Virus record (IMG/VR): IMGVR_UViG_3300027810_000002
Location: 64,001 to 128,000 of that record
DNA length: 64,000 nucleotides
Strand: one strand, 5' to 3'
Origin: a virus
The notes under the pieces are model-generated. The model saw nothing but the letters and a program-made list of their open reading frames with translations. It was not told the origin of the DNA and ran no database searches. Position 1 is the first letter of the stretch. The number at the start of each line of letters is the position of its first letter. The translations under genes and the position numbers were made by a program. This document shows, piece by piece, positions 31,675 through 50,684 of the stretch.

Positions 31675-31704
31675 AAAAAAAAGGATCCCAATGGGATCCT
31701 TTTT
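31675..31704. terminator. Intrinsic terminator after collagen operon
   Basis: aaaaaggatccca-a-tgggatccttttt perfect hairpin with A/T tails. Confidence 0.85.
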
Positions 31705-31730: not shown

Positions 31731-34340
31731 TTATGTCGGAGTAATGGTACCACCGCCTTTGAGTCCTCCACCACCGCCTCCGGTTGCTGTAACTAATCCA
31801 TTAACGAATGTGACATTGTGTCCCGTACCGAAGAAAATGGTTTCACTAATAGCACTAATTGTTCCGTTAGTTCCTGGATGTCCTCCATAACCTCGTACAC
31901 CCTGAGGTCCATTTGCTCCAGTTGCTCCTGTAGGCCCTTTATAACCTTGTGGTCCATTTGATCCTGTTGGTCCTCCATTTCCGCCATTTCCTTTTGTTCC
32001 AGTATTACCTTTTGCTCCTTGGAATCCTCTTGGTCCTCCATTTCCAGTAAGTCCTTTATAACCTTGAGGTCCTACTTGTTGATATCCCTGAGATCCTTTA
32101 AGTCCAACTCCTAGACTGCTACCAGTGTTTCCTTGAACTCCTCGAACTGTTCCAGTTGGTCCTTTATAACCAGTAGGTCCTTTATTTCCTGTCCAACCTG
32201 TAATAGTAGTTCCGGTGGTTCCTCTTAATCCCTGAGGTCCTGTATATCCTTGAACTCCTTTTGGACTTGCTCCACCATTACCTTGTGCTCCTTGAGGTCC
32301 AGTATATCCTTTTGCTCCTCCGGGTTGTGATCCTTTAAGACCTTGAGGTCCCTTAGTACCAACTTTACCTTGATATCCCTTAGGCATTGCTCCTTTAGAA
32401 CCCTGAGTTCCTTGGGCTCCTTGTGGTCCTCTATGTCCAGTTAAAGAATCTCCAGTTGGGCCGGTGTTACCGGTTAGTCCTTTATAACCTGTAACTCCTT
32501 TATGTGATGTTGGACGTGCGCCTTGATTTCCTTGTGGTCCTCTTGGTCCAGTGCTTCCGGTTGGTTGTGCTCCTTTATCTCCTTGAGTACCCTGTGCTCC
32601 TTGTGGTCCTCTTGATCCTCCGGGCTGTGCTCCTTTATCTCCTTGGAATCCTCTTGGTCCTGTTAGTCCAATAAATCCTTTTGGCTGAGCTCCTTTATAT
32701 CCTTGAACTCCTTGAGCTCCTTGAACTCCTCTAAATCCTGTTGGATTTGCTCCTTGGAAACCTCTTTCTCCATTAATTCCTTTGAAACCGGTTGCTCCTG
32801 TTGGTGAAGATCCTTGAACTCCTCTTGGTCCAGTACTTCCAATAAATCCAGTATACCCCTTTGGCATTGCTCCTCTAATTCCTTGGAATCCTCTTGGTCC
32901 TGTTGGTCCTGTTGGCGAAGTTGGTCTAGCTCCTTGAAAACCTCTTGGTCCCGTATTTCCAGCATCACCGATAAGTGCGTTATATGCAGGTCCTGTTGGT
33001 CCTGTATATCCTGTTGGTCCGTTTGGTCCTATGTGTCCTTTTGGACTTGCTCCGATATTACCAATTGCTCCTTGAGATCCTTTAAGACCAGTATATCCCT
33101 TTGGACTTGGTCCTGTATATCCTGTTGGTCCGTTTACTCCTTTATCTCCTTGGAATCCTCTATTAGTACTTCCTTGAGATCCTCTAATACCCTGTACTCC
33201 TTGAAACCCTCTTGGTCCTGTTGGTGAATTACCAATAGCTCCTTGAAAACCTCTTGGTCCAGGATCTCCTGTTTGAGCAGCTGGTGTACTTCCAGTATTT
33301 CCTTGAAAACCTCTTTCTCCGTTTAATCCTTTGTCTCCAACTGGATTTGCTCCTTGTGCTCCTTTAAAACCAGGATAACCTTCAGCTCCTTGAAAACCTT
33401 TTGGACTATTTCCAACGTCTCCTTGAAAACCTCTGTCTCCGTTCAATCCTTTGTCTCCAACTGGATTTGCTCCTTGTGCTCCTTTAAAACCAGGATAACC
33501 TTCAGCTCCTTGAAAACCTTTTGGACTATTTCCAACGTCTCCTTGAAAACCTCTGTCTCCAGTTTGTCCTACTTGTGCAGTTTGAGTTGAACCCTGTGCT
33601 CCTTTTAATCCAGTTGCACCCTGTGAACCTTTATGTCCTTTTTGATTTGTACCTGCAGAACCTTGAAATCCTACATGTCCAACAAAACCAGTTGCTCCAC
33701 CAGGGTTTAACCCCGTAGTACCTTGATCTCCTTGAAAACCTCTGAAACCAGTTGCTCCTGTTAATTGATCTCCCTGAAACCCTCTTGGTCCATCAGGTCC
33801 AATATCACCAACGTAAGCTGTAATTACATTACCCTGTGATCCGGTTGAACCTTGATCTCCTTTTAGTCCTTTAAGACCATTAGTTATTTTACCTGCATCT
33901 CCAACTGTTCCTTGATTTCCTCTAAAACCTTCTGGTCCTTCTGGTGAATCTCCAACTGTTCCTTGGAATCCTCTAAAACCTTGATCAGCAGTACCTTTAT
34001 TTCCTTGAAAACCTCGATCTCCTTGAAAACCTATATTACCTTCATAACCTTGATGTCCTTGTGGACTGTCTCCTTGAAAACCTCTGAAACCAGTATCTCC
34101 AACAGGTTCTAAACCCGCAGATCCTTGAACTCCTTTATCTCCTTGAAAACCTCTATCTCCTTGAGAACCTTGAGAACCTTCAATACCTTGAAAACCTTGA
34201 TCTCCTTGAAAACCTTGAGCTCCAACAATACCTTGGTCTCCCTGGTCTCCTTTCAATTCAGGATAGTTATTAGCATCAAAGTTACCAGTATGTAGGGGAG
34301 TTTCTCCCCCTACAAGTGATCCTGTATTTAATTTTGCCAT
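31731..34340 (-). CDS. Collagen-like fibre chain A (periodically interrupted)
   Basis: ~277 GXY triplet-equivalents with a one-residue deficit every 20 aa. Confidence 0.9.
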
Positions 34341-34380
34341 GTTATTTTTATTCTTTTTTTATATATAATTAACTTATTGA

Positions 34381-37041
34381 TTATACTATGAATCCGTTTG
34401 TTACAGTAAATGGTGTACCATTGTCATCTACAAAAAATCCATTAAAACCATTACCAGTAGGTCCAGATCCAGGCCACCCAGCATAACCGATTTTACCCTG
34501 AGGTCCAAAGTTAGTTGGTCCATTACTTCCAGTTGCTCCTCTTGCTCCTGTTGATCCAGATCCTCCAGAAGATCCTTGAGCTCCTCTTGGTCCTGTTGAT
34601 CCTACTAAACCTTGATATCCTGTAGATCCTGGAGATGCAGCCTGTCCTTGAAATCCTCTTGAACCTTGAGATCCTGGTATTCCTGTATATCCTTGAAATC
34701 CTCTTGGTCCTGTTGGTGGGGTTGATCCTTTATATCCTGTTGGTCCATTACTACCTTGTGGTCCTCTTGACCCCGTTGGTCCTGTTGAACCTTTAGCTCC
34801 CTGTGGTCCTTTATAACCTTGTGCTCCTTGTGGACCCGTTGGTCCTTTATAACCTCCACCTCCGGTTGCTCCAGTTCCTCCTTGATATCCTCTTGGTCCA
34901 GTATTACCTTGTGCTCCTTGTGTACCTTGGAATCCTGTTATTCCTCTGTCTCCAGTGGCTCCTTGTGGTCCTCTGTCTCCCACTGCTGAAGTAGTTCCAG
35001 TAATACCTTTTTTACCAATAAATCCAGTATAACCTTTTGCTCCAGTTGCTCCCTGTGATCCAGTTGATCCCTGTGCTCCTTGATTTCCTTTAGCTCCAGT
35101 ATTTCCCTGTACTCCTGTTAATCCAGTTGCTCCTTTAAATCCAGTATAACCAGTTACTCCCTGTGCTCCTTGATTTCCTTGTGATCCGTTAACTCCTGTT
35201 TTACCAATAAATCCAGTATAACCTGTTGCTCCGGTAGATCCTTGTGAACCATTAACTCCAGGATAACCAGTTGGTCCCGTTGGTCCTTGATTTCCAACGG
35301 CTCCAGTTCCTCCAGTTACTCCTTTAGCTCCAACAAGTCCAGTATAACCTTTTGCTCCGGTTGCGCCCTGTGCTCCTGTAAATCCAGTAGGTCCTGTTGA
35401 ACCTTTAACTCCTTGTGCTCCTTGTGCTCCTTTTACATTAGTAAATCCTTGAGGTCCCGTTGGTCCTTGAGGACCTGTGTTACCAACATTAGATGTTGTT
35501 CCTGTTAATCCTTTAAAACCAGTAGCTCCTTTTGCTCCTTGTACTCCTTGTACTCCTGTTAATCCTTTATAACCGGTAGCTCCTTTTGCTCCTTGTGCTC
35601 CTTGTGCTCCTTTAGGTCTTTGAGATCCCTGAGGTCCCTGAGCTCCTTTTGCTCCTTGAGAACCTTTATTACCAGTAGCTCCTTTAGCTCCTATTGCTCC
35701 TTGGAATCCTCTTTCACCAAGTTCTCCAGTGTTTCCTATAGTACCCTGAGGTCCAGTTGATCCCTGTGCTCCTTGATTTCCTTTTAATCCTTCAAATCCT
35801 GTTGAACCAACAACTCCTCTATAACCAGTATCTCCTTTGAAACCGGTAAATCCTGTAGCTCCTTTAGCACCTTGTGCTCCAGTAACTCCTTGGAATCCCT
35901 TTGGTCCCGTTGGTCCTTGTGGTCCTCTTCCACCAGATCCACCAGTTAATCCTTGATAACCAGTTGCTCCAGTATTACCTTTAGTTCCTTGATTTCCTTT
36001 AGCTCCAGTATCTCCTTTAAGGCCGTTAATTCCTTTAATACCAACATATCCAGTAGAACCTTTAGCTCCTGTTGCTCCTTGAAAACCTGTTGCTCCAGTA
36101 TTACCCTTAGTTCCTTGATTTCCTTTAGCCCCAGTATCTCCTTTAAGTCCGTTAATTCCTTTAATACCAACATATCCTGTAGAACCTTTAGCTCCTGTTA
36201 CTCCTTGAAAACCTGTTGCTCCAGTAGATCCTTGTGTTCCTTGAGATCCAGTACTTCCTTTATCTCCTGAAAGACCTTGAAATCCTCTTTCACCAGGATC
36301 TCCTGGTAAAGAATCCGAAGCAGTTGCTCCTTTAAATCCTTTTTGTCCTGTTGAACCTTTAGATCCCTGAGATCCTTTAACTCCATTAGTTCCAGGTAAT
36401 CCTTCAAAACCAGTAGATCCTTTAGATCCCTGTGCTCCATTAACTCCGGTAAATCCTTTTAAACCGGTTGAACCTTGCGATCCTTTATTTCCTTTAACTG
36501 ATGTTGCTCCTTTAGCTCCTTGGAATCCTCTTTCTCCAGTATCTCCTTGTGTACCTTGTGTACCTTTAATACCGAGAGAACCTTGACTTCCTTGAAAACC
36601 TCTTTCTCCGTTAATTCCTTTTACACCCTGTGCTCCAGTAGCTCCTTGGAATCCTTGAAGTCCAATAGAACCTTGATCGCCGACTTGTCCTTGATACCCA
36701 TTAGAACCATTAGGACCTAATATACCTGTTATTCCTTTTTCTCCTCTAATTCCAGTTGCACCGGTAAAACCTTGAAGACCATTTGATCCTTGATTACCTT
36801 TACTACCAGTAGATCCTTGATCACCTTGAATACCTTGATAACCATCAGTTCCAACGAAACCTTGATTACCTGTATCACCTTGATGACCGACACTACCGTC
36901 GGATCCAACAGATCCTTGGGATCCTTGAGATCCCAATTCACCGTTTGGTCCAATAAGCTGAGGAAAATTCGTGCTATTAAGGTTACCACTGTGTAATACA
37001 AGATTACTGTCTAACGTAGTACCTAAGATAAATTTTGCCAT
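34381..37041 (-). CDS. Collagen-like fibre chain B
   Basis: ~277 triplets between a 30-aa N-cap and short C-cap. Confidence 0.9.
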   Translation of the reverse strand: MAKFILGTTLDSNLVLHSGNLNSTNFPQLIGPNGELGSQGSQGSVGSDGSVGHQGDTGNQGFVGTDGYQGIQGDQGSTGSKGNQGSNGLQGFTGATGIRGEKGITGILGPNGSNGYQGQVGDQGSIGLQGFQGATGAQGVKGINGERGFQGSQGSLGIKGTQGTQGDTGERGFQGAKGATSVKGNKGSQGSTGLKGFTGVNGAQGSKGSTGFEGLPGTNGVKGSQGSKGSTGQKGFKGATASDSLPGDPGERGFQGLSGDKGSTGSQGTQGSTGATGFQGVTGAKGSTGYVGIKGINGLKGDTGAKGNQGTKGNTGATGFQGATGAKGSTGYVGIKGINGLKGDTGAKGNQGTKGNTGATGYQGLTGGSGGRGPQGPTGPKGFQGVTGAQGAKGATGFTGFKGDTGYRGVVGSTGFEGLKGNQGAQGSTGPQGTIGNTGELGERGFQGAIGAKGATGNKGSQGAKGAQGPQGSQRPKGAQGAQGAKGATGYKGLTGVQGVQGAKGATGFKGLTGTTSNVGNTGPQGPTGPQGFTNVKGAQGAQGVKGSTGPTGFTGAQGATGAKGYTGLVGAKGVTGGTGAVGNQGPTGPTGYPGVNGSQGSTGATGYTGFIGKTGVNGSQGNQGAQGVTGYTGFKGATGLTGVQGNTGAKGNQGAQGSTGSQGATGAKGYTGFIGKKGITGTTSAVGDRGPQGATGDRGITGFQGTQGAQGNTGPRGYQGGTGATGGGGYKGPTGPQGAQGYKGPQGAKGSTGPTGSRGPQGSNGPTGYKGSTPPTGPRGFQGYTGIPGSQGSRGFQGQAASPGSTGYQGLVGSTGPRGAQGSSGGSGSTGARGATGSNGPTNFGPQGKIGYAGWPGSGPTGNGFNGFFVDDNGTPFTVTNGFIV

Positions 37042-37076
37042 GTTATTATTTTTATATTTTTATTTGTTTTATATTG

Positions 37077-39950
37077 TTATCCGATATTTACACCGTTTAC
37101 AATAGTACGTGCTCCTCCTGCTGCTAAAACAGTTCCGTTATATCCAGAATTTGCAGCAGAAATACCTTGAATTCCTTGTGGTCCTCTTACTCCGGTACCA
37201 GAACCACCTGTGGCTCCTTGATAACCTTGAGGTCCTCGAGATGCAGGTGATCCTGATGCTCCAGTATATCCTTTAGGTCCTTGTGCTCCGTTTGGTCCTT
37301 TTAATCCTGTAGATCCTTGTGATCCTGATATTCCTTTATATCCTTGAACTCCTCTTGGTCCTGTACTACCATTAGGTCCTATATAACCTTGTACTCCACG
37401 TGCTCCTACTGATCCAGTGGTACCCTTTACTCCTTGAGGTCCTGTATATCCTTGAGCTCCTTGTGCTCCTTGGTTTCCTTGAGCTCCTCTTACAGTACCT
37501 GCAAGTCCAATAAAACCTTTAAGTCCGGTTGAACCTTGTGGTCCTCTTCCTCCCTGTGGTCCTATTGGTCCAGTATATCCTTTTGGTCCTGTTGCTCCTT
37601 GGAATCCTCTGTGACCTGGTGCACCACCATAACCTTGTGCTCCAGTTGGTCCTGTATAACCCTGTACTCCTTGAGTTCCTCTTGCAGCCGCAGTTCCCTG
37701 TGGTCCAGTTAGTCCTTTATTACCAGTAGCTCCCTGTGGTCCTCTTGGTCCAGTAGATCCTTTAAAACCTGTATCTCCTTTTGCTCCTTGGAATCCTCTA
37801 ATTCCTTGTGGTCCAAGATCTCCAGTAGGTCCAGTTGCTCCTTTAGGTCCGATATATCCGATATATCCTTTTGGTCCAGTTGCTCCTTGAGGTCCTTTAG
37901 TTCCTTTTGCTCCAGTTGCTCCTTGATTACCCTTTGGTCCAGTTATTCCCTGAACTCCTTTTGCTCCTTGAAAACCTTTTGTTCCTTGGGCTCCTTGAGG
38001 TCCAGTATTTCCTTGAGGTCCTCTAATAGTTCCAGTACTTCCAATTACTCCTTGAAAACCTTTGTTTCCAGTAGCTCCGGTTGCTCCTTGATTACCTTTA
38101 ATTCCTTGGAATCCTCTGTCACCAGTTGCTGCAGTAGATCCTTTAAGACCTTGGAATCCGTTTGTTCCTTGGAATCCTTGGAATCCTCTTGGTGCAGCAG
38201 TTCCCTGTGCTCCGGTATTTCCTTGAAATCCAATCTTTCCAGTTGGTCCTAAATTACCAGTTGCTCCGGTATTTCCTTGAACTCCAATAAATCCTTTATC
38301 TCCTTTAGTTGCACTTGGGGCAATATATCCAGTGTCTCCTTGTGTTCCTCTGTCTCCAGTTGCTCCTTGATTACCTTGTGATCCTGTTACTCCAGTATAT
38401 CCTTTTGCACCAGTAGTACCTTTAGATCCTTGGAATCCTCTTGGTCCACTAGATCCTTGATGTCCTCTTTCACCAGCATCTCCTTGAACTCCTTTTGAAC
38501 CTTGTGGTCCAACTGCTCCAACAGATCCCTGTGCTCCTGTTACTCCAGTGTTTCCTTGAACTCCAATTGCTCCTGTTGATCCTTTATCTCCAATTGCTCC
38601 TTGAGGTCCTGTATAACCTTTTGCTCCTTGTGCTCCAAGAGGTCCTGTTAAACCTTTAGCTCCTTGATTTCCTTTGAAACCTTGATCTCCTTTAAGACCA
38701 ACATTTCCAATAATACCTTGATTTCCTTGGAATCCTCTTGAACCAGTATTACCCTGTGCTCCAGTAGATCCTTTTAAACCTTTAGCTCCTTGGTTTCCTT
38801 TGAAACCTTGATCTCCTTTAAGACCAACATTTCCAATAACACCTTGGTTTCCTTGAAAACCTCTTGAACCAGTATTACCCTGTGCTCCAGTAGATCCTTT
38901 TAAACCTTTAGCTCCTTTTGATCCTTTAAAACCTCTTTCACCAATGATACCATCGGCTCCAGTAGATCCTTGATAACCAGTTGCTCCAGTAGATCCTTGT
39001 GTTCCTATTACTTTATTAATACCAGCGTCTCCTTGAGTTCCTTGATTTCCTTGAAAACCTCTGTCTCCTACGGGTCCGTTAATACCTGTTGTTCCTTTAA
39101 TTCCTTTGTCTCCTTGGAATCCTCTGGCTCCATTTGAACCATTATTTCCTTTTGCTCCTTGAGGTCCTGTAAATCCAACGTCTCCTTGTGCTCCTCTGTT
39201 TCCATCAAGTCCTTTATAACCTGTTGCTCCAGTTGAACCTTTAAAACCTTGATCTCCGATTACCCCATCAGAACCTTGATCACCTTTATAACCGGTAACC
39301 CCTTGATTTCCCTGAACTCCAATAGGTCCAGTAACTCCTTTGTTTCCGACAGATCCTTGGAATCCTCTGGCACCATCTGCACCTGTTAAACCCTTAGTAC
39401 CTTGAGTACCTTTAGTTCCTTGATTTCCTTGGAATCCTCTTTCACCTTGATTTCCAACAATACCTTGAGTTCCTTGGAATCCTCTTTCACCTTTAGCTCC
39501 AGTAGTACCTGAAATACCAATATCTCCTACTAATCCTTTACTACCACGTGATCCTTCACTACCAGTATCTCCTACTAATCCAGTATTTCCAAGAGAACCT
39601 TTATCTCCACGAAAACCTTCATCACCCGTATTTCCTTTTGCTCCTTTTAAAGAAAGAAAATTACCCGGAATAAAATTACCAGGTCTTATCACTAGATTAC
39701 CACCGATTGTTGAATCAGCTTTAAAGTTTCCACCACCATCAAAAGTACCACCCGCTATAATTGCGGAATCAGTACTCCTAATAGTTAACACATTCCCCGC
39801 AGGGAATGTGTTTAACTCTTCTAGGTAAGACGGCGTATAGACGATAGCTGAACCTTGGTCGATACCTGCTCTGTTCGAAGTTTCATCGATCTGAGCCTGG
39901 AATTCTCCGGTAGATTGTACTAGTTTTATCGCTATTTTATTAAATGCCAT
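37077..39950 (-). CDS. Collagen-like fibre chain C
   Basis: ~276 triplets after a 102-aa N-domain. Confidence 0.9.
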   Translation of the reverse strand: MAFNKIAIKLVQSTGEFQAQIDETSNRAGIDQGSAIVYTPSYLEELNTFPAGNVLTIRSTDSAIIAGGTFDGGGNFKADSTIGGNLVIRPGNFIPGNFLSLKGAKGNTGDEGFRGDKGSLGNTGLVGDTGSEGSRGSKGLVGDIGISGTTGAKGERGFQGTQGIVGNQGERGFQGNQGTKGTQGTKGLTGADGARGFQGSVGNKGVTGPIGVQGNQGVTGYKGDQGSDGVIGDQGFKGSTGATGYKGLDGNRGAQGDVGFTGPQGAKGNNGSNGARGFQGDKGIKGTTGINGPVGDRGFQGNQGTQGDAGINKVIGTQGSTGATGYQGSTGADGIIGERGFKGSKGAKGLKGSTGAQGNTGSRGFQGNQGVIGNVGLKGDQGFKGNQGAKGLKGSTGAQGNTGSRGFQGNQGIIGNVGLKGDQGFKGNQGAKGLTGPLGAQGAKGYTGPQGAIGDKGSTGAIGVQGNTGVTGAQGSVGAVGPQGSKGVQGDAGERGHQGSSGPRGFQGSKGTTGAKGYTGVTGSQGNQGATGDRGTQGDTGYIAPSATKGDKGFIGVQGNTGATGNLGPTGKIGFQGNTGAQGTAAPRGFQGFQGTNGFQGLKGSTAATGDRGFQGIKGNQGATGATGNKGFQGVIGSTGTIRGPQGNTGPQGAQGTKGFQGAKGVQGITGPKGNQGATGAKGTKGPQGATGPKGYIGYIGPKGATGPTGDLGPQGIRGFQGAKGDTGFKGSTGPRGPQGATGNKGLTGPQGTAAARGTQGVQGYTGPTGAQGYGGAPGHRGFQGATGPKGYTGPIGPQGGRGPQGSTGLKGFIGLAGTVRGAQGNQGAQGAQGYTGPQGVKGTTGSVGARGVQGYIGPNGSTGPRGVQGYKGISGSQGSTGLKGPNGAQGPKGYTGASGSPASRGPQGYQGATGGSGTGVRGPQGIQGISAANSGYNGTVLAAGGARTIVNGVNIG

Positions 39951-39998: not shown

Positions 39999-42782
39999 TT
40001 AATCGAATGAGAATGTAATGTCTCCATTTGCGTCTCTTTCAATTCTTGCTGTTGGGTTACCATTAACATCGTTAAAATAAATAGCTTTATCATTGGCGAT
40101 TGTTATTGAATCTCCATCAAATGCACCAGTTTCTCCTTGATCTCCTTTAGTACCTTGAACTCCTTGAATACCATCGTCTCCTTTGAAACCTTGATCTCCT
40201 TTAGCTCCAGTATCTCCTTTGAAACCTTGATCTCCTTTAATACCTTGAATACCTTGAATACCATCGTCTCCTTTGAATCCTTGATCTCCTTTAATACCTT
40301 GAATACCATCGTCTCCTTTAATACCTTGAATACCATCGTCTCCTTTAGTACCCTGAACTCCGATAACTCCTTGTTCTCCAGTATCTCCTTTGAATCCTTG
40401 ATCTCCTTTAGCTCCAGTATCTCCTTTGAAACCTTGATCTCCTTTAATACCTTGAATACCATCGTCTCCTTTAGTACCTTGAACTCCGATAACTCCTTGT
40501 TCTCCAGTATCTCCTTTGAATCCTTGATCTCCTTTTAAACCAGTATCTCCTTTGAAACCTTGATCTCCTTTTAAACCTTGAATACCATTGTCTCCTTTGA
40601 ATCCTTGATCTCCTTTTAAACCAGTATCTCCTTTAGCTCCAGTATCTCCTTTGAAACCTTGATCTCCTTTAATACCTTGAATACCATCGTCTCCTTTAGT
40701 ACCTTGAACTCCTTGAATACCATCGTCTCCTTTAGTACCTTGAACTCCTTGAATACCATCGTCTCCTTTAGTACCCTGAACTCCGATAACTCCTTGTTCT
40801 CCTTGAATACCTTGAATACCATCGTCTCCTTTTAAACCTGTATCTCCTTGAATACCCTGTTCTCCTTGAATACCCTGTTCTCCTGTATCTCCTTTAAGAC
40901 CAGTATCTCCTTGAATACCTTGAATACCATCGTCTCCTTTAATACCTTGAATACCATCGTCTCCTTTAGTACCTTGAACTCCGATAACTCCTTGTTCCCC
41001 TTGGAAACCTTGAATACCTTGCTCTCCAGTATCTCCTTTGAAACCTTGATCTCCTTTTAAACCTTGAATACCATCGTCTCCTTTAGTACCTTGAACTCCT
41101 TGAATACCATCGTCTCCTTTAGTACCTTGAACTCCTTGAATACCTTGTTCTCCTGTATCTCCTTTAAGACCTGTATCTCCTTTGAATCCTTGATCTCCTT
41201 TAAGACCAGTTTCTCCTTGAATACCTTGAATACCATCGTCTCCTTTAGTACCTTGAACTCCTATAACTCCTTGTTCTCCTTGAATACCATCGTCTCCTTT
41301 AGTACCCTGAACTCCGATAACTCCTTGTTCTCCTTGAATACCTTGAATACCATCGTCTCCTTTAGTACCCTGAACTCCGATAACTCCTTGTTCTCCTTGA
41401 ATACCTTGAATACCATCGTCTCCTTTGAATCCTTGATCTCCTTTAGTACCTACAGTACCTTGAACTCCGATAACTCCTTGTTCTCCAGTATCTCCTTTTA
41501 AACCAGTATCTCCTTGAATACCTTGAATACCATCGTCTCCTTTGAAACCTTGATCTCCTTGAATACCTTGTTCTCCTTGAATACCTTGAATACCATCGTC
41601 TCCTTTAGTACCTACAGTACCTTGAACTCCGATAACTCCTTGTTCTCCTGTATCTCCTTTAAGACCAGTTTCTCCTTGAATACCTTGAATACCATTGTCT
41701 CCTTGGAAACCTTGTTCTCCTTGAATACCTTGTTCTCCTTGAATACCTTGAATACCATTGTCTCCTTGGAAACCTTGTTCTCCTTGAATACCTTGAATAC
41801 CATCGTCTCCTTTAAGACCAGTTTCTCCTTGAATACCATTGTCTCCTTGGAAACCTTGTTCTCCTTGAATACCTTGTTCTCCTTGAATACCTTGAATACC
41901 ATCGTCTCCTTTAGTACCTTGAACTCCGATAACTCCTTGTTCCCCTTGGAAACCTTGAATACCTTGTTCTCCTGTATCTCCTTTAAGACCAGTTTCTCCT
42001 TGAATACCCTGTTCTCCAGTATCTCCTTTGAATCCTTGATCTCCTTGAATACCTTGTTCTCCTGTATCTCCTTTAAGACCAGTTTCTCCTTGAATACCCT
42101 GTTCTCCAGTATCTCCTTTGAATCCTTGATCTCCTTGAATACCTTGAATACCATCGTCTCCTTTGAAACCTTGATCTCCTTGAATACCTTGAATACCATC
42201 GTCTCCTTTGAAACCCTGATCTCCTGTATCTCCTTTAAGACCAGTTTCTCCTTGAATACCTTGAATACCATTGTCTCCTTGGAAACCTTGTTCTCCTTGA
42301 ATACCTTGAATACCCTGTTCTCCTGTATCTCCTTTAAGACCAGTTTCTCCTTGAATACCTTGAATACCATTGTCTCCTTGGAAACCCTGTTCTCCTTGAA
42401 TACCTTGAATACCCTGTTCTCCTTGATCTCCTTTAAGACCATCTACTCCTTGATCTCCTTTAAGACCATCTACTCCTTGATCTCCTTGTTCCCCTTGGAA
42501 ACCTTGAATACCTTGTTCTCCTTGATCTCCTTTAAGACCAGTTTCTCCTTGAATACCAGTGTCTCCTTGGAAACCCTGTTCTCCTTGAACACCTTGAATA
42601 CCTTGTTCACCGGTATCTCCTTTAAAACCTTGATCTCCTTGAAGACCTTGATCTCCTTGAAAGCCTTGAACCCCATCAATACCTTGATCTCCTTGAAGAC
42701 CTTGATCTCCTTGCGCTCCTTGATATCCGGATCCTTGATCTCCCTGGGGACCTGCGGTAGAAATATATGCTGAATATGCCAT
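39999..42782 (-). CDS. Acidic, Pro-poor collagen-like protein (chain D)
   Basis: ~290 nearly uninterrupted triplets (GIQ, GEQ, GDQ, GDD, GFK, GLK); short C-terminal beta domain. Confidence 0.9.
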   Translation of the reverse strand: MAYSAYISTAGPQGDQGSGYQGAQGDQGLQGDQGIDGVQGFQGDQGLQGDQGFKGDTGEQGIQGVQGEQGFQGDTGIQGETGLKGDQGEQGIQGFQGEQGDQGVDGLKGDQGVDGLKGDQGEQGIQGIQGEQGFQGDNGIQGIQGETGLKGDTGEQGIQGIQGEQGFQGDNGIQGIQGETGLKGDTGDQGFKGDDGIQGIQGDQGFKGDDGIQGIQGDQGFKGDTGEQGIQGETGLKGDTGEQGIQGDQGFKGDTGEQGIQGETGLKGDTGEQGIQGFQGEQGVIGVQGTKGDDGIQGIQGEQGIQGEQGFQGDNGIQGETGLKGDDGIQGIQGEQGFQGDNGIQGIQGEQGIQGEQGFQGDNGIQGIQGETGLKGDTGEQGVIGVQGTVGTKGDDGIQGIQGEQGIQGDQGFKGDDGIQGIQGDTGLKGDTGEQGVIGVQGTVGTKGDQGFKGDDGIQGIQGEQGVIGVQGTKGDDGIQGIQGEQGVIGVQGTKGDDGIQGEQGVIGVQGTKGDDGIQGIQGETGLKGDQGFKGDTGLKGDTGEQGIQGVQGTKGDDGIQGVQGTKGDDGIQGLKGDQGFKGDTGEQGIQGFQGEQGVIGVQGTKGDDGIQGIKGDDGIQGIQGDTGLKGDTGEQGIQGEQGIQGDTGLKGDDGIQGIQGEQGVIGVQGTKGDDGIQGVQGTKGDDGIQGVQGTKGDDGIQGIKGDQGFKGDTGAKGDTGLKGDQGFKGDNGIQGLKGDQGFKGDTGLKGDQGFKGDTGEQGVIGVQGTKGDDGIQGIKGDQGFKGDTGAKGDQGFKGDTGEQGVIGVQGTKGDDGIQGIKGDDGIQGIKGDQGFKGDDGIQGIQGIKGDQGFKGDTGAKGDQGFKGDDGIQGVQGTKGDQGETGAFDGDSITIANDKAIYFNDVNGNPTARIERDANGDITFSFD
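40130..42750 (-). repeat. Mosaic of 9-bp codon-triplet repeats in chain D
   Basis: Recurrent ccttgaata / ccatcgtct / cctttaaga / ccttgatct units. Confidence 0.85.
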
Positions 42783-42816: not shown

Positions 42817-43581
42817 TTAGTCTAATGAGTTTTTCTCGTATACTATATCGAAAAGATCTCCTCCTCCGATTTCATATCCTGCGAAATTTGAATTCCAAAA
42901 CAGTTCATCACCAGCTTCTAAATCTGCAACAGATTTGGCAGTGATACCTGCGTTGTTAGAGAAATATACATCTCCTGTTTTTTCTCCGTAAGTTTCAGTA
43001 ACAGCTACACCGTTAATATAAACCTGTACAGTTGAATCTGCGAAAGGAGTATAGTCTAATGTAATACCTGTTGCTGATTCATCTCCGTTAGATGCAAGAG
43101 GTGCTAAATCAGCCTGTGTGTATTCAGTACCTTGTGCTACCTGAGTTGGACCTAAACTTGGTCTCCATGGTAATACTTGTGCTTTTGTTGCTGAAATCGC
43201 TTGTAAAACTGGATTGCTGTATGCATACACTGGATCAGAAGCATTCACAAACGCTGAGATAGAACCTGAATCAGATTCATCAACTACGTAAAAAGTACCT
43301 GGAGTTAAATTCCAAGTTGATACTTCAATGTTACCAATTTGTACTGCAATAAAATTAGAATCATCAGTAGCTTCTTCAACTACTAATCTTCCCAATTTGT
43401 CGGCAGTTTTAGAATCTGCTAAAACCCAAGAACCGTTAAAGAATGCAATAACATTCCCTGCTGCAAAACCATGAGCAGCTTGTTCGTAACTTGATTTTAA
43501 AGATCCTGATGCCAGTTGAGAATCGATAGACTCTAACTTTGTCTGTAAGCCTTCGATTTGCTTAATTTTTAATTGTGACAT
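42817..43581 (-). CDS. Fibre anchor/adaptor protein
   Basis: N-terminal MSQLKIKQI; HGFAAGNVI...LTPGTFY head-fibre-like domain; C-terminal VYINGV domain paralogous to 48336..49589. Confidence 0.6.
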   Translation of the reverse strand: MSQLKIKQIEGLQTKLESIDSQLASGSLKSSYEQAAHGFAAGNVIAFFNGSWVLADSKTADKLGRLVVEEATDDSNFIAVQIGNIEVSTWNLTPGTFYVVDESDSGSISAFVNASDPVYAYSNPVLQAISATKAQVLPWRPSLGPTQVAQGTEYTQADLAPLASNGDESATGITLDYTPFADSTVQVYINGVAVTETYGEKTGDVYFSNNAGITAKSVADLEAGDELFWNSNFAGYEIGGGDLFDIVYEKNSLD

Positions 43582-43706: not shown

Positions 43707-44297
43707 ATGATAAATAGTATAATGAATAGTATTACTAAGAAGATAGTTAGAGATTACATATATTTTAGAGAAACATTAGATGACGTAAAAACTATTTCTA
43801 GTGATGCGGAAGGTATGTTTAGGGACGCGATGCACGATCATAATGAGGTTGCACTAACAGCTCTCACTCCACCAGAAGGAGCACCTCCTATTAAAAAAAT
43901 TGATGAAGAACTTGTTGTAAAATTTGAAGACAAGCTCTTTAAAAAGCTTTTTAGAAAGATAGCAGTATTATGCCATCCGGATAAATTAGATGATTCTTAC
44001 TCTGAAAGAGAAGCTACATTTTTAAAAAAATGCTATGAAGATCTCAATACTTCTAACCAAACATACGATTGGGGATTGTTGTTGAAAGTTGCTATGGAAC
44101 TGGATGTTGAAATTCCGGAATTAAGCGATGAGCAATTTATTAACATTAATAATAATATAGAATCTATTAAAAATACTATTAACCAGTTTGAAGGATCTAT
44201 GGCTTATAAATGGTATACCCTCTCCGACACTGATGCCAAGAAAGGGTATTTAGAAAGCTGTGCTTCTATATTTATGGATAGTTTAAAGAATCGTTAA
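43707..44297 (+). CDS. Atypical J-domain protein
   Basis: Internal KKLFRKIAVLCHPDK (HPD) motif; only plus-strand gene in the left 57 kb. Confidence 0.7.
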   Translation: MINSIMNSITKKIVRDYIYFRETLDDVKTISSDAEGMFRDAMHDHNEVALTALTPPEGAPPIKKIDEELVVKFEDKLFKKLFRKIAVLCHPDKLDDSYSEREATFLKKCYEDLNTSNQTYDWGLLLKVAMELDVEIPELSDEQFININNNIESIKNTINQFEGSMAYKWYTLSDTDAKKGYLESCASIFMDSLKNR

Positions 44298-45076
44298 ACG
44301 TCCCACTTATTAGTTAGATGACATCTTACATAAACAGGTGCCTGATACGCAATACCATTAGGATATTCTGATTGCAATCTCGTATAAAAGTCTACATCTT
44401 CTGACGTGTCTTTAGAGATAATATCTCTCCATTTTGTTGATAAATTAGATTTGTGCATAAATAACCAAGGTGCCATTATCTGTCTGTCTGGTTTTACTTG
44501 AATTGGCTTCCATGCCTCTGGTAAACCTTCTATCTGAATTGCCGGTGTTTCTGAAGGATCTAATATAGCATTCCCATTAGCTAGCTCAGTTGAAACAGAC
44601 TCATGATCAAACCATGAGGTATTTATCCACCAATCTTTTTCTGGGTTTGCGTTAAAATATAAAAGAGATGTCATCGTTGCGTTTGGCATTAAAAAATCAT
44701 CTGAATCCATATACATTACAACGTGGCCGGTTGCTGCAGCTGCACCTAGTCTTCTACCGAATCCTCTATAATATCTTCCTTTATCTTCTATTTCCTCGTA
44801 CATTTGAGGAGTGTCTGTTCTATCGAAATATATTAGTTTTATATTTGGTGTGTTCTTGTGTGATCTATTAAATAGTTGATGTGTTTTATTACACCCATCT
44901 GCTACTATAATAAGTTCGCAGTTTTTATATGTTTGGTTTTGAAAACTTTCGACTGCCCTGTGAAATTTACCAATAGGATCTTTTCTTGAATTTTCGTAGT
45001 TTTCTAGGTTTACTTGCATCACTATAGATATTTTTATCTTGTTTAGTGATTCGAATATTTCTTTAAAATTGCTCAT
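44294..45076 (-). CDS. GT2 glycosyltransferase
   Basis: SFQNQTYKNCELIIVADG, YMDSDD, SEDVDF. Confidence 0.85.
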   Translation of the reverse strand: MSNFKEIFESLNKIKISIVMQVNLENYENSRKDPIGKFHRAVESFQNQTYKNCELIIVADGCNKTHQLFNRSHKNTPNIKLIYFDRTDTPQMYEEIEDKGRYYRGFGRRLGAAAATGHVVMYMDSDDFLMPNATMTSLLYFNANPEKDWWINTSWFDHESVSTELANGNAILDPSETPAIQIEGLPEAWKPIQVKPDRQIMAPWLFMHKSNLSTKWRDIISKDTSEDVDFYTRLQSEYPNGIAYQAPVYVRCHLTNKWDV

Positions 45077-46272
45077 TATTTATATAGGTTTGTTTTCCAA
45101 TTATATTTATAAGATAATTCATGTGTTCCTGGTTTAAATAAATTATCTATTAACTTTTTATATGTATCTACCAGATCCGCGTTAGTTGACAAATAACGGT
45201 CTAATACTTTTTTACTGTTTTCATTATATTGATCTAGGTTATTGTCATGTTCCTCAAGTGCCAATTTTAATTGATCGGCTCCTTGTGATATATTAAATCC
45301 TTCATAATAATATCCTGCATCCTTTATCATGTCTGCATTGTGCACTATAGGGTACCCAAAATAGAGTGCGTCTAAGTATGCATAGTTTAATGGGTTTTCC
45401 CATTGGTGTGATAAGACTATGTCGGTTTCACTTGCTAAGAACGTCGATACTGGGTACCTTCCAACATACTTTATTTTGTTATCTGGAGAGTTAACTATGT
45501 CGAAATTCTTAATCATCGATAAATAGTATTTATTCTTTAGTAATTTCTTGCCAGATCCTATGTATATTTGTTTAAACGCGTTTTTACCGGATTCTCTAAA
45601 AACTCTTTCAGCGATCATGATAGTCATCAATGAATATTTAACAACATTTATATTTGGTTCCATTACAGATAACTTTTTATCTTTAGCATCCTTTGGAATA
45701 TATCCCGGAATCAATTTGCCGGCACGTTTTAGTAATTTATTAAATTCATCAAGCGGCTCAGGGTCCCATATGAAAGGAACTGTTTTTATCTGAGAATCCT
45801 CTTGTCTGTATATTGTTTTAAAGTATTCTAGGTTTTGATATTCCTGTTGAGGTATTACCCATGTTTCGTCGTGGCCTCCATCCCATGAAGGAACCATTGA
45901 CTCGGTAATTGTATCAAACATTACTCGTTCCATGTCAACTACATAACTATTTCCACATTGGTATTTTACTACTTTTAAATTTGGATTTTTGCTTTTCATT
46001 AAAGATATCCTACTTGTAGGCAAAGAAGCACCTACCATAAACATTAAGTCTATCTCATTCTCCATCGCTGTAAATTTTGCGATTTTATATTTATTATAAT
46101 CCCAGTTTACTTTAGTTAAATCAGAAACATTCTTAGCTGCGTCTAAAATATAAACATCAAGTCCTTCTATTTGGTTTAACATTTTAGATAGGTTCAGCGC
46201 ATTTAATTTAATGCCGTTGATCCACATGCTTTCATATTCCTTTGTTAGGGATATTATAATTCCTACTTTCAT
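45076..46272 (-). CDS. DUF2827-like putative glycosyltransferase
   Basis: SMWINGIKLN, VMEPNINVVK, SHQWENPLNYAYLDALYFGYPIVHNA. Confidence 0.7.
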   Translation of the reverse strand: MKVGIIISLTKEYESMWINGIKLNALNLSKMLNQIEGLDVYILDAAKNVSDLTKVNWDYNKYKIAKFTAMENEIDLMFMVGASLPTSRISLMKSKNPNLKVVKYQCGNSYVVDMERVMFDTITESMVPSWDGGHDETWVIPQQEYQNLEYFKTIYRQEDSQIKTVPFIWDPEPLDEFNKLLKRAGKLIPGYIPKDAKDKKLSVMEPNINVVKYSLMTIMIAERVFRESGKNAFKQIYIGSGKKLLKNKYYLSMIKNFDIVNSPDNKIKYVGRYPVSTFLASETDIVLSHQWENPLNYAYLDALYFGYPIVHNADMIKDAGYYYEGFNISQGADQLKLALEEHDNNLDQYNENSKKVLDRYLSTNADLVDTYKKLIDNLFKPGTHELSYKYNWKTNLYK

Positions 46273-46377: not shown

Positions 46378-48150
46378 TTAGTGTTGGTAAACGAATACTA
46401 CTTCGTCTTGTGCATCAATTACATAACCTGGGTTAGATAAAGTAACCTGTGGTCCTGCAACTGTTTGAACAAATACTCTGTGTCCGTTAACAAATACATC
46501 TACTAAAGATGATTGGTCTTCTTGTACAGGGTGTGCTAAACTGTAAACTAATCCAGCTCCAGCGAATGTTTCAGTAGCCATTTGATCATCTTCGATGATA
46601 GCAGCTTCTAATACATCTAATCTACCGTCTTGAACTGATTGCTCAGCGTCAGTAGAAGCGATTTCAGCAGCTAGTGCAGAATCAATTCTTGTAACGTCAG
46701 CGTTAGTAGCAACGATTTCAGCGTTTAACTGAGATTGTAAATCAGAATCAGCTTGATCTCTTGCTAATTCCTCAGCAGCCATTTCAGCGTCATGCTTAGC
46801 TTCTAATGAAGTAAAGTCTGCGTTAGTAGCAGCGATTTCATCAACTAAACCAGCTTCAACCTCTGATACTCTCGTATCGATTGAAGTAAATTCAGCAGTG
46901 ATAGCTCCTTCTAAAGAAATAACATCAGAATTAGTAGCAGCGATTTCAGCAGATAAAGCAGTATCGATTCTAGTAACATCAGAGTTAGTAGCAGCGATTT
47001 CAGCAGATAAAGCAGAATTGATACTAGTGATATCAGAATCAGTAGCAGCGATTTCAGCGTTTAAGTTAGAAATTACTACAGCTAAAGCGTTATCATTTAC
47101 AGTATCAACAGCGTTGATTAAAGAAACAACCTCAACGAATGTATCTTTGTCAGCGTCAGCAGCTAATAAGATTGCGTCGATTCTTGCGTTTTCTGCATCA
47201 ATGTTAGCTTGTAACGTTGAGTCAGCAGCAGCATAAGCAGCTTCAACTCTTACGAAGTCAGAATTAGTAGATGCAATTTCTGCAGCTAATTCTCCTTCAA
47301 CTCTTGTAAAGTCAGAGTTAGTAGAAGCGATTTCAGCAGCTAGTGCAGAATCAATTCTTGTAACGTCTCCATTAGTAGCTAAAACTTCAGCGTCTAATTC
47401 AACTCTTAAGTCAGATACTTCATCAACTAAATCTCCAGATACTTCTCCTAATCTTAAGTCAATAGAAGTAACATCAGAATTAGTAGATGCGATTTCATTG
47501 TCTAAAGCAGATTGTAATGCAGTGTCAGCTTGCTCTCTTGCTAATTCCTCAGCAGACATTTCAGCGTCATGCTTAGCCTCTAAAGAAGTGAAGTCAGAGT
47601 TAGTAGCTGCAATCTCTGCAGATAATTCTCCTTCAACTCTTGTAAAGTCAGCGTTTGTTGCAGCGATCTCTTGAGAGATTGCTAAGTTAATGCTTGTGAA
47701 ATCTGCGTTAGTTGCAGAGATCTCATTGTTTAAGTCAACGATTACCGCTCCTAAAGCGTTATCATTTTCTAAATCAACAGCATTGATTAAAGAAACAACC
47801 TCAACGAATGTATCTTTATCAGCATCAGCTGCTAATAAGATTGCGTCGATTCTTGCATTTTCTGCATCAATGTTAGATTGTAACGTTGATTCAGCACCTT
47901 CAGCTCTTGATTGTTCAGTAGATAAATCTCCTTCTAATCTAGAAACGTCTGTGTTTGTAGCTGATACTTCACCAGCTAAAGCAACTTCTAAAGAGTCAAT
48001 TGATGCGTCTAATTCCGTTTGAGCTGCAACTATCTCATCACCAACGTACTTTGCGATGTCAGATGTGTTTGCAATCTCAAAAGAAGATGTAGCTGCCCAG
48101 TTTACTGTGCTTAAGAAATCCTTAATTTGTTTTGAACGAATTTGTGCCAT
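46378..48150 (-). CDS. Acidic coiled-coil fibre protein
   Basis: 18-residue AEIAATNSDxTRxDxAL repeats; duplicated ADADKDTFVEVVSLINAVD; C-terminal VFVNG domain. Confidence 0.75.
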   Translation of the reverse strand: MAQIRSKQIKDFLSTVNWAATSSFEIANTSDIAKYVGDEIVAAQTELDASIDSLEVALAGEVSATNTDVSRLEGDLSTEQSRAEGAESTLQSNIDAENARIDAILLAADADKDTFVEVVSLINAVDLENDNALGAVIVDLNNEISATNADFTSINLAISQEIAATNADFTRVEGELSAEIAATNSDFTSLEAKHDAEMSAEELAREQADTALQSALDNEIASTNSDVTSIDLRLGEVSGDLVDEVSDLRVELDAEVLATNGDVTRIDSALAAEIASTNSDFTRVEGELAAEIASTNSDFVRVEAAYAAADSTLQANIDAENARIDAILLAADADKDTFVEVVSLINAVDTVNDNALAVVISNLNAEIAATDSDITSINSALSAEIAATNSDVTRIDTALSAEIAATNSDVISLEGAITAEFTSIDTRVSEVEAGLVDEIAATNADFTSLEAKHDAEMAAEELARDQADSDLQSQLNAEIVATNADVTRIDSALAAEIASTDAEQSVQDGRLDVLEAAIIEDDQMATETFAGAGLVYSLAHPVQEDQSSLVDVFVNGHRVFVQTVAGPQVTLSNPGYVIDAQDEVVFVYQH

Positions 48151-48335
48151 ATTATTTTATTTATTATATTTTGGCCTAACAACCTTATTGTCGTTAGTGA
48201 ATTATATATTCTTGTTAAGTTGTAATAATTGTCATATTTGGACGTAATATGTTAATAGAATTCAAAAAATTGGGTTTTTCCCATTTTCCCTATTAAAGAT
48301 GAGGTATACGTGTGCACACGTGAATTAGGATATTA

Positions 48336-49589
48336 TTACCTTAGATCGTCGGATTTTGCTTCGTATATTAAATTGATCTCGTCTCCGATTTCTAATTCAT
48401 ACCCTGCAATATCTCCATTCCAATATAATTGATCTCCTGATCTAATCTCTTCAACGCTTGCAGCCGCTAATCCGCTATTACCTGAAAAATACGCGTCTTT
48501 GTCTTTAGTTCCATCTCCAACTTCAACACTAAGTCCGTTTACTTCAACCATAACATAAGAATCTTGATATGGTGAATACGTTATTAGTATTCCTGTTGCA
48601 GAATGATTTCCTACAGATGCTGATGGGTTTATATTCTTATCAACGTACGTTAAGATACCACTTTCACTAGCAGCTCCGCCTCCTTCAAAATTAAAAGTGC
48701 TTCCGGCAGCATGTGCATCTAGCGTATATGTTACTTCTTGATCTATTTCCCATTCTGTTTTTGTAACACCAGGCCCTGCTGATGCCGCTTCCATTGTTAC
48801 ATGTACCTTTATACCATCGCTGTCATCGTCAATTCCATTTCCCGAGGTAATATCAACTCTTTCCCATGTCTCTATTTTATAAATAGCGTACAGGTTTGAA
48901 TCCGATTGATCTATTATTGTAATTACTCCACTTATTTTATCATTAGTTATTCTTTTCTCTAAAAAGTTTTCTAGAGTTGTTAATCTAGTGTTGTTTGAAT
49001 TTAAGTTTCTAAATATTATAGTTTTAACTGCCATTGGGTAATGGGAATCAACTGTTAAATACCCAGGTGCCGTTGGATTAGAACCATCGATCTCTTGTAT
49101 TGTAAACGTTCCCGTACTAGAAGGTGCTTGTATTATTGTAGTAGTTCCTCCACCTGTTTCTCCAGATGGATCTCCATTGTCTATTACTGGATTGTTAATA
49201 ACGTCTCCAAGTAATAGTCTTGGGAATACGTAGTTTTTAGGTTGCGGATAATAGTTTTCGTAGTATACGCTTATCTGTGCATATAATCTACCAGATGACA
49301 AGTGAGTTGAGTTAGTTTCGTTAATATTAAAACTTATTTTACCTGTATCGTCTACTAAATCAACGTCTAAATCAACAGAAACTCCTGAAATAGAAGGTCT
49401 TGAAAATTGCAAAACTTTTTTATCTTCAACGTAAAGAGCAACATTAAATGATGTTGGTTGATTTAAATTCAATACAGATCCTATAAAATCTTTATATAAT
49501 ATGATATCATATGTCTGTGAATTTCCTTGAATGAAGTTTGATCCCCCGTCAATAAATGCTATTATATCGTCCTTTGCTACGTAAGCCAT
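48336..49589 (-). CDS. Fibre anchor/structural protein
   Basis: C-terminal domain paralogous to 42817..43581 (VEVNG...DAYFS...GDQLYWNG...AGYE). Confidence 0.6.
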   Translation of the reverse strand: MAYVAKDDIIAFIDGGSNFIQGNSQTYDIILYKDFIGSVLNLNQPTSFNVALYVEDKKVLQFSRPSISGVSVDLDVDLVDDTGKISFNINETNSTHLSSGRLYAQISVYYENYYPQPKNYVFPRLLLGDVINNPVIDNGDPSGETGGGTTTIIQAPSSTGTFTIQEIDGSNPTAPGYLTVDSHYPMAVKTIIFRNLNSNNTRLTTLENFLEKRITNDKISGVITIIDQSDSNLYAIYKIETWERVDITSGNGIDDDSDGIKVHVTMEAASAGPGVTKTEWEIDQEVTYTLDAHAAGSTFNFEGGGAASESGILTYVDKNINPSASVGNHSATGILITYSPYQDSYVMVEVNGLSVEVGDGTKDKDAYFSGNSGLAAASVEEIRSGDQLYWNGDIAGYELEIGDEINLIYEAKSDDLR

Positions 49590-49631
49590 TTCTATTAAGT
49601 ATTTTTTATATATATTCTTTTAAATTTAACT

Positions 49632-50318: not shown

Positions 50319-50369
50319 GAATATATTTATTCATATTTTTCTCGAGTATTAGTAAAAATTAAACTTATA

Positions 50370-50684
50370 TTATAAAGTTTTTTTGTTTTTATTTTCTTCT
50401 TTAGTATTACTTTGTTTATTTAAACTAGTATTACTAAGGGTAAGTCCCCACTGTAGAATAAACCATTGAGCTTCTTTGATCGCCATAAATTTATTTATTT
50501 TTAAAACTTCTCTAATCCTATTAACACAGTGTTCGATAAAGGCGTCTTCTTCCACCTTGGTTGTCTTGTATTCCATGTACCATTGTGGATTATTTTTAAC
50601 ATCCTCATACGTTACATTGTGTGGTTTTAACTGCTCGTTAATTAATTCAACGAAAAGCTCTTTTGTTTTTTCTCGCTTTGTCAT
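50370..50684 (-). CDS. Hypothetical phage protein
   Basis: 104 aa; WY...WFILQWGL. Confidence 0.65.
   Translation of the reverse strand: MTKREKTKELFVELINEQLKPHNVTYEDVKNNPQWYMEYKTTKVEEDAFIEHCVNRIREVLKINKFMAIKEAQWFILQWGLTLSNTSLNKQSNTKEENKNKKTL

What the first reader, a model, noticed from the sequence alone, without database searches (positions are those of the whole stretch)
31731..39950. Three collagen genes in exact triplet register: a phage-encoded ABC heterotrimeric collagen
Seen, counting triplets by hand from the first GXY (totals for B and C reconcile with ORF lengths; positions in A were spot-checked against the DNA). (1) All three chains end at ~276-278 triplet-equivalents despite different sequences. 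(2) They share an N-cap ([16 protein letters not shown] / LHSGNLNSTNFPQLIG / IRPGNFIPGNFLSLKG) and a C-cap (TFVNGLV / TVTNGFI / TIVNGVN). (3) Over triplets 1-244, Gly substitutions in B (51, 71, 72, 149, 163, 169, 219) and C (71, 148, 149, 162, 169, ~218) all fall at or next to breaks in A (49-51, 70-71, 147-149, 161-162, 168-169, 217-218). Known: to my knowledge characterised prokaryotic and phage collagen-like proteins are homotrimers, and heterotrimers are regarded as an animal feature. Inference: A, B and C co-assemble 1:1:1 into one triple helix with a contour length near 240 nm.
Basis: partly seen in the sequence, partly recalled or inferred. Interest (0 to 1): 0.95.

Follow-up and report, generated by a model that had tools for sequence, protein, structure and literature searches.

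The report
Three-chain phage collagen fibre
Three neighbouring genes of an uncultured marine jumbo phage encode different collagen chains whose lengths, duplications and contact residues fit together as one mixed triple helix in a fixed order (B-C-A), a design I found documented only for animal collagens; the case rests on sequence analysis and one structure prediction, not on a bench test.

Summary
Observation confirmed; interpretation supported by new tests. A (31731-34340), B (34381-37041) and C (37077-39950) have 276/276/275 triplet-equivalents, but only if A's one-residue-short break every seventh triplet counts as two triplets. Across related phages the three lengths move together through seven classes (184-276; r about 0.99); the adjacent collagen D varies independently (40-357). 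Length changes of +14, -21 and -43 sit at the same place in all three genes. Lys-Asp/Glu and Arg-Tyr/Phe pairs peak only at B>C +1, C>A +1 and A>B +2, the axial geometry of one staggered helix. B-C-A ranks first of all 27 trimers in 7 of 7 loci (window 114 pairs; homotrimers 23-45). In-register homology does not explain this. A model of the three C-termini passes (0.65 vs 0.01). Caveats: no biochemistry; one locus (L009) has a short A; some short forms may be assembly collapses; location on the virion is unknown. A's periodic defect may curve the fibre (about 40%). The scan noted this before in another genome of the same family (e1-5354748) and similar cases in other viruses.

The parts
37077..39950 (-). 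Chain C gene (957 aa): 102-aa N-terminal domain ending in the shared N-cap, 275 triplet-equivalents, 29-aa C-cap; predicted middle chain
34381..37041 (-). Chain B gene (886 aa): 30-aa N-cap, 276 triplet-equivalents, 29-aa C-cap; predicted leading chain
31731..34340 (-). Chain A gene (869 aa): 30-aa N-cap, 276 triplet-equivalents with a G4G break every 7th triplet (20-residue period) up to about triplet 239, C-cap and Gly-rich tail; predicted trailing chain
39645..39950 (-). N-terminal domain present only on C; about 90% conserved in close relatives; candidate single-copy attachment module (inference); fold not resolved
37167..39644 (-). Collagen domain of C (residues 103-928)
34471..36951 (-). 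Collagen domain of B (residues 31-857)
31866..34250 (-). Collagen domain of A (residues 31-825)
38629..38917 (-). Tandem duplication in C, 126-nt unit (14 triplets), 94-96% identical copies, triplets about 80-112
35945..36226 (-). Tandem duplication in B, 126-nt unit (14 triplets), 94-96% identical copies, same register
33300..33560 (-). Tandem duplication in A, 120-nt unit (40 aa = 14 triplet-equivalents), 98-99% identical copies, same register
37080..37166 (-). C-cap of C; packs against the caps of A and B in the complex model
34384..34470 (-). C-cap of B
31773..31865 (-). C-cap of A
31675..31704 (-). 7-bp hairpin followed by eight T just after A's stop codon; likely intrinsic terminator closing the D-C-B-A run (read by eye, not scanned)
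39999..42782 (-). Collagen D (927 aa, net charge -92, no Pro in the parsed domain, no shared caps): not part of the trio; behaves as a homotrimer and served as internal control

Best explanation
A, B and C each supply one strand of a single collagen triple helix about 240 nm long, with B leading, C middle and A trailing. SHOWN in sequence: matched lengths, coordinated insertions and deletions, coincident breaks, and side chains complementary across chains at the axial positions of a one-residue-staggered helix. INFERRED: the three paralogous C-caps form a small mixed trimer that nucleates folding. Register is then held by inter-chain Lys-Asp/Glu/Asn, Arg-Tyr/Phe and Gln-Phe pairs, which replace hydroxyproline (only 2-5 Pro at Y per chain) and favour B-C-A over homotrimers. 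A runs one residue short every seventh triplet while B and C continue, which puts a periodic defect on one strand only. The single N-terminal domain on C probably anchors the fibre. The product is most likely a long virion fibre for first contact with a Bacteroidota host. The virion role (about 0.75), the host, and any curvature caused by A's defects (about 0.4) are inference. The confidence given is for the B-C-A heterotrimer.
For: Lengths A/B/C in triplet-equivalents: 276/276/275, 262/262/261, 258/259/266, 240/242/240, 219/221/219, 218/222/217, 184/183/184; Pearson r 0.985-0.995 with the exception L009 included; D is unrelated at 40-357. Length changes localise to the same register in all three genes: +14, -21, -43. 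Within single loci, all three genes carry near-identical tandem repeats at the same place, with units of 120/126/126 nt in one lineage and 180/189/189 nt in another, so A's unit is always 20/21 of B's and C's. Lys(Y)>Asp/Glu(X) pooled over six lineages: B>C +1 86 (background 35+-5), C>A +1 91 (24+-5), A>B +2 83 (26+-5). Arg>Phe/Tyr: 33 (7), 77 (16), 107 (24). The reverse order is flat. This +1/+1/+2 cycle is the i+2, i+2, i+5 rule of PMC11923368. Arg-aromatic N-to-C axial pairs stabilise model helices (PMC12086834). In the window, 52 of 69 acidic X residues face Lys and 62 of 69 Arg face Tyr/Phe. B-C-A ranks first of 27 trimers in 7 of 7 loci. The register holds along the length. Swapping partners between lineages cuts the signal from 8-9 to 3-4 pairs. 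A 175-aa domain is inserted in C alone (L007) or B alone (L021) without changing the matched lengths. Complex model of the three C-terminal 70-73 aa: ipSAE 0.65, best control 0.01 (mark reached by 58 of 80 solved and 2 of 110 mismatched pairs), runs agree in at least 79% of contacts, partner pLDDT at least 79, lowest-error contacts in the caps.
Against: No protein was made or imaged. L009 has B and C long (278/277) but A short (261); its pair register shifts by exactly 14 after triplet 81. It is either an assembly collapse, a chimera or a real mismatch, and laying contigs did not decide. The long/short state is scattered on the tree. L013's C is 99.7-100% identical to L002's but lacks a unit whose copies are 100% identical in L002, so some +14 differences may be assembly artefacts. 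In L015, C is 7-8 triplets longer by my count. A and C keep a weaker within-chain Arg-Gly-Phe signal (z 3-5 in close loci), so homotrimers are not excluded as minor species. The complex job held no homotrimer or unrelated-collagen control, and collagen helices can pass by likeness to solved structures.
Confidence: 0.91

Rival explanations
1. Three separate homotrimers (AAA, BBB, CCC) pack side by side in a bundle or must span the same distance, so their lengths co-vary.
For: It would also tie lengths and break positions. Known phage collagens trimerise on their own (PMC3368898). A within-chain Arg-Gly-Phe signal exists in A and C.
Against: Within-chain Lys-Gly-Asp/Glu is little or not enriched in A, B or C (35 vs 25+-6, 38 vs 34+-5, 32 vs 27+-5), whereas it is strong in D (268 vs 128). 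Lys-acid pairs per trimer in the window: AAA 7, BBB 7, CCC 15, BCA 52. Lateral packing gives no reason for a one-directional +1/+1/+2 cycle. A is 4% shorter in residues.
Confidence: 0.04
2. A heterotrimer of looser make-up: B-C-A is preferred, but two-chain forms (for example CCA, CAA, BAA) also form and function, and one chain can be mismatched or absent.
For: Two-chain trimers keep about 60% of the pairs (68 vs 114). L009 may be a viable mismatch.
Against: All three genes are kept, in the same order and with matched lengths, in 12 of 13 complete loci. All three interfaces show the signal.
Confidence: 0.04
3. The match is only a relic of gene duplication or gene conversion among paralogues, or an artefact of assembly.
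For: The caps are homologous, so the genes are paralogues. Repeat collapse is plausible for some short forms.
Against: Identical triplets in register are rarer than background (0.011-0.018 vs 0.022-0.025). The duplicated units differ in sequence between genes. The -43 change involves no near-identical repeat. Imperfect in-locus duplications and complementary pairs cannot come from collapse.
Confidence: 0.01

Closest known systems
Complement C1q (A, B, C chains) and ABC animal collagens such as type IV alpha3-alpha4-alpha5
   Same: Three different chains in one triple helix; interruptions in register, some of unequal length between chains; register supported by i+2/i+2/i+5 salt bridges (PMC11923368); C-terminal chain-selection domain (own knowledge).
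   Different: No animal non-collagenous domain was found: Pfam reports only Collagen on A and nothing on C's N-domain. Almost no Pro at Y, and heavy use of Arg-Tyr and Gln-Phe pairs. One chain carries more than 30 strictly periodic G4G deletions. Phage-encoded; works like them but is not a member.
Prophage collagen-like proteins EPclA-D of E. coli O157:H7 (PMC3368898)
   Same: Phage collagen between N- and C-terminal caps, no hydroxyproline needed, proposed virion fibre.
   Different: EPclA forms trimers from a single chain type, with PfN/PCoil/PfC domains not found here; here three genes are locked in register.
Prokaryotic collagen-like proteins in general (Scl2, BclA; review PMC8968730)
   Same: Long Gly-X-Y repeats, Thr/Gln-rich Y positions, salt-bridge stabilisation.
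   Different: The review states that they are homotrimers. Chain D of this locus fits that description; A, B and C do not.
Designed ABC collagen-mimetic peptides using axial charge and cation-pi pairs (PMC12086834; bioRxiv 10.1101/2024.05.21.595195, abstract only)
   Same: The same pair types at the same geometry specify composition and register.
   Different: Those are short, Hyp-rich synthetic peptides; this is a natural helix of about 830 residues per chain without Hyp.

Membership tests
Collagen-like protein (PF01391) | Long Gly-X-Y repeat | tested here: met
   Pfam E 5e-62 for A; B and C parsed by script
Collagen-like protein (PF01391) | Forms a triple helix physically (CD maximum near 220 nm, cooperative melting) | not testable with these tools
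   Only a model of the C-terminal 70-73 aa
ABC heterotrimeric collagen (as a design) | Three distinct chains with commensurate helical domains | tested here: met
   7 length classes, 12 of 13 loci; holds when G4G counts as two triplets
ABC heterotrimeric collagen (as a design) | Interruptions aligned across chains | tested here: met
   11/11 in the window, 39/46 over six lineages vs 12.4 expected
ABC heterotrimeric collagen (as a design) | Inter-chain pairs define one composition and register (i+2, i+2, i+5) | tested here: met
   rule from PMC11923368
ABC heterotrimeric collagen (as a design) | Terminal domains that select the three chains | tested here: inconclusive
   Caps pack in the model (0.65 vs 0.01), but no AAA/BBB/CCC comparison could be run
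ABC heterotrimeric collagen (as a design) | Measured 1:1:1 stoichiometry | not testable with these tools
   Needs co-expression and native mass spectrometry
Animal collagens / C1q family | NC1, COLFI or gC1q domain; Pro/Hyp-rich Y positions | tested here: not met
   No such Pfam domain on A or on C's N-domain; C-caps are only about 29 aa; 2-5 Pro at Y per chain
Homotrimeric prokaryotic/phage collagen-like proteins | Self-complementary chain (within-chain Lys-Gly-Asp/Glu enrichment) | tested here: not met
   Little or no enrichment in A, B, C; strong in D
Phage virion fibre | Present on the particle | not testable with these tools
   Uncultured phage; PHROG hits are to the collagen repeat only

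The most novel reading that the evidence does not exclude
The heterotrimer exists in order to break three-fold symmetry. Chain A alone loses one residue every seven triplets, close to one superhelical turn of a 7/2 helix, so the defects line up on or near one face and give a programmed curved or corkscrew collagen fibre whose length changes mostly in steps of seven triplets (14, 21; one step of 43). This would be a natural hydroxyproline-free ABC collagen outside animals and a new way to shape a collagen rod.
Probability: 0.38. Interest if true: 0.93.

Novelty: new variant of a known kind. Interest (0 to 1): 0.83.

Why it matters
[quoted passage not shown] My searches of the open library found no natural non-animal heterotrimer (subscription papers are not covered). 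If true, this shows that ABC collagen evolved independently in phages. It supplies a bacterially expressible, Hyp-free helix of about 830 residues per chain whose chain order can be read from sequence, with more than 100 predicted inter-chain pairs and natural variants. It also makes an open question testable: PMC11923368 says the structural consequences of interruptions that differ between chains are not understood, and chain A offers more than 30 such interruptions at a fixed period.

Tried and rejected
Protein search with C's N-domain found nothing. Genome collection scan: no relative. No cultured phage carries the module: the upstream 254-aa gene has only weak matches in three uncultured huge-phage records, with no collagen genes within 20 kb. 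The AlphaFold model of C's N-domain was too poor to search (pLDDT 44); Pfam, PHROG and the Atlas gave nothing useful for it. A PDB sequence search with A's C-cap gave only Gly-rich matches to designed proteins. Laying Logan contigs on L009: contigs break around A's repeat region in all four runs, as they do at B's and C's repeats in the best-matching run, but no go-back joint appeared among those shown; inconclusive. Counting G4G as one triplet (A = 243) or by residues (A = 266) was rejected because the pair register stays at +1/+1/+2 along the chain only under the two-triplet count. D as a fourth partner in the helix was rejected: no preferred shift with A, B or C, only with itself. The compensatory-switch count (9 columns vs 2.8+-1.5) is not corrected for relatedness and is given little weight. 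A literature search on G4G in heterotrimers returned nothing. Two paper look-ups failed on syntax.

Full report
Setting. The window is part of a 175-kb contig. It looks like a T4-like jumbo phage: a baseplate wedge gene matches PHROG 219, and its best relatives are uncultured huge phages and Lak phages at 29-40% identity. Runs holding a close relative are marine or seawater metagenomes. The phage encodes ribosomal protein bS21. Other bS21 phages are predicted to infect Bacteroidetes (PMC9723584), and the genes here have A-rich starts without a Shine-Dalgarno motif, so a Bacteroidota host is a reasonable inference. Four collagen genes run head to tail on the minus strand in the order D, C, B, A, 35-48 nt apart, followed by a hairpin and T run.

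The observation. The three lengths agree (276/276/275) only under that count; in residues they are 795/827/826. Because A is broken so often, each coincidence is cheap (p 0.19-0.32), yet 11 of 11 gives 3e-7 to 8e-5, and six lineages give 39 of 46 against 12.4 expected.

Co-variation of length. Related loci came from viral contigs, metagenomes and assemblies. In 13 complete loci the gene order is the same, and A/B/C fall in seven classes: 276/276/275 (window, L002, L025), 262/262/261 (L012, L029, L033), 258/259/266, 240/242/240, 219/221/219, 218/222/217 (two loci) and 184/183/184. Pairwise r is 0.985-0.995. D ranges from 40 to 357 triplets with no relation to the trio. Triplet-level alignments place +14 at triplets 80-98, -21 at 135-164 and -43 at 58-120 in all three genes. 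In the window each gene carries its own tandem duplication at the same register, 120 nt in A and 126 nt in B and C. A separate lineage shows the same with 180/189/189 nt. A 175-aa globular domain is inserted in C alone in L007 and in B alone in L021 without disturbing the match.

Limits of that evidence. L009 has long B and C but short A. Its inter-chain register shifts by exactly 14 beyond triplet 81, so its A is complementary to B and C as if the unit were present. Collapse, chimera or recent loss cannot be told apart. The long/short state is polyphyletic, and L013 looks like a collapsed copy of L002's C, so the +14 comparison between loci may be partly artefact. The in-locus duplications, the -43 event and the pair statistics do not depend on it.

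Inter-chain pairs. [quoted passage not shown] In triplet shifts this is +1, +1, +2, and the sum of four does not depend on where counting starts. I counted Lys>Asp/Glu and Arg>Phe/Tyr, both chosen beforehand, for every ordered pair of chains at 41 shifts. The peaks are B>C +1, C>A +1 and A>B +2 (86, 91 and 83 Lys-acid pairs against backgrounds of 24-35, sd about 5; 33, 77 and 107 Arg-aromatic pairs against 7-24). The reverse order is flat. In the window alone z is 9-13 for each interface, and the register holds in nearly every sliding window. Of 69 acidic X residues 52 face Lys, and of 69 Arg 62 face Tyr or Phe. B-C-A is the best of all 27 trimers in each of seven loci: 114 pairs in the window, next best 68, homotrimers 23-45. 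An unbiased scan of all residue pairs ranks Arg-Tyr, Lys-Asp, Lys-Asn and Gln-Phe highest. Three controls apply. D shows the homotrimer signature with itself and none with A, B or C. Partners swapped between lineages lose more than half the signal. Identical triplets in register are below background, so shared ancestry is not the cause. A weaker within-chain Arg-Gly-Phe signal remains in A and C.

Model. The three C-terminal 70-73 residues, folded with alignments, score 0.65 against a best control of 0.01. The mark was reached by 58 of 80 solved and 2 of 110 mismatched pairs; runs agree in at least 79% of contacts; partner pLDDT is at least 79; the best-defined contacts are between caps. This supports binding but may reflect likeness to solved collagen helices, and no homotrimer control was possible.

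Mechanism. Shown: commensurate lengths, coordinated changes, and complementary side chains in B-C-A order. Inferred: the caps nucleate a mixed trimer, axial pairs hold register without hydroxyproline (2-5 Pro at Y per chain), and the one N-terminal domain on C anchors the fibre. The N-terminal parts are the most conserved and the C-terminal parts the most variable, and some relatives add a Hint-like or SPRY-like domain (weak leads), which suits a host-facing fibre. A's defect recurs every seven triplets. The 7/2 helix repeats at that period (own knowledge), which would put the defects on one face and bend the rod; in a homotrimer they would cancel. Imino-poor sequences lean towards the looser 10/3 helix (PMC5643560), in which case the defects would precess and might act as hinges or binding studs instead. 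I put curvature at about 0.4. Neighbouring glycosyltransferases and 2-oxoglutarate oxygenases could modify the fibre; this is untested.

Comparison and novelty. It works like C1q or collagen IV alpha3-4-5 but is not a member of those families. It differs from EPclA and other prokaryotic collagen-like proteins, which are described as homotrimers. I found no published non-animal heterotrimer in the open library. Earlier notes of this scan reached the same reading for another genome of this family (e1-5354748) and for other viruses; they are unchecked AI notes, seen after my analysis, and are not counted as support. Verdict: new variant of a known kind; heterotrimer 0.91; interest 0.83.

Noticed in passing
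window:39999-42782 (-): Collagen D: 289 unbroken triplets, net charge -92, strong self Lys-Gly-Asp signal; its length varies 40-357 triplets among relatives, some with a 149-151 aa inserted domain with no Pfam match. A, B and C together are +122, so a side-by-side electrostatic association is possible, but no preferred register was found.
   Followed up: partly
G000:C1:136935-143075 (-), outside the window: Another collagen gene, 2046 aa, with unbroken runs of 311 and 241 triplets and net charge -158.
   Followed up: no
G000:C1:45382-47874 and 47928-50489 (-), outside the window: Two adjacent baseplate-region proteins (830 and 853 aa) with similar N-termini and short collagen runs of 14 and 13 triplets at nearly the same position; possibly a second small mixed helix.
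   Followed up: no
L007:11588-12112 and L021:5698-6222: The same 175-aa domain is inserted in chain C in one lineage and in chain B in another; weak SPRY lead (Atlas score 0.89, 35% of cluster members).
   Followed up: partly
L015:17689-18327 and L021:8911-9507: Chain A carries a C-terminal extension of about 200 aa with weak Hint/intein-like Pfam hits (E 0.016 and 0.0026, below the curated cut-offs).
   Followed up: partly
window:35500-35611 (-): A 54-nt near-identical repeat in B alone (93% here, 80-98% in relatives), with no length difference and no counterpart in A or C; suggests repeats can be homogenised in place.
   Followed up: partly
window:28238-31621 and 44294-46272 (-): The collagen genes are flanked by a 2OG-Fe(II) oxygenase, DUF6445, two GT2 glycosyltransferases and DUF2827; a candidate fibre-modification cluster conserved in the relatives.
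   Followed up: partly
window:25251-25439 (-): Phage-encoded ribosomal protein bS21 (Pfam E 4e-10).
   Followed up: yes
window:46378-48150 (-): 590-aa acidic, repetitive, probably coiled-coil protein whose length varies among relatives (453-674 aa); may be another fibre. Its N-terminus resembles that of the 254-aa protein at 42817-43581.
   Followed up: no
L013:1980-4727 vs L002:10001-12874: C genes 99.7-100% identical except for one 126-nt unit whose two copies are identical in L002: likely assembly collapse, or very recent contraction.
   Followed up: partly
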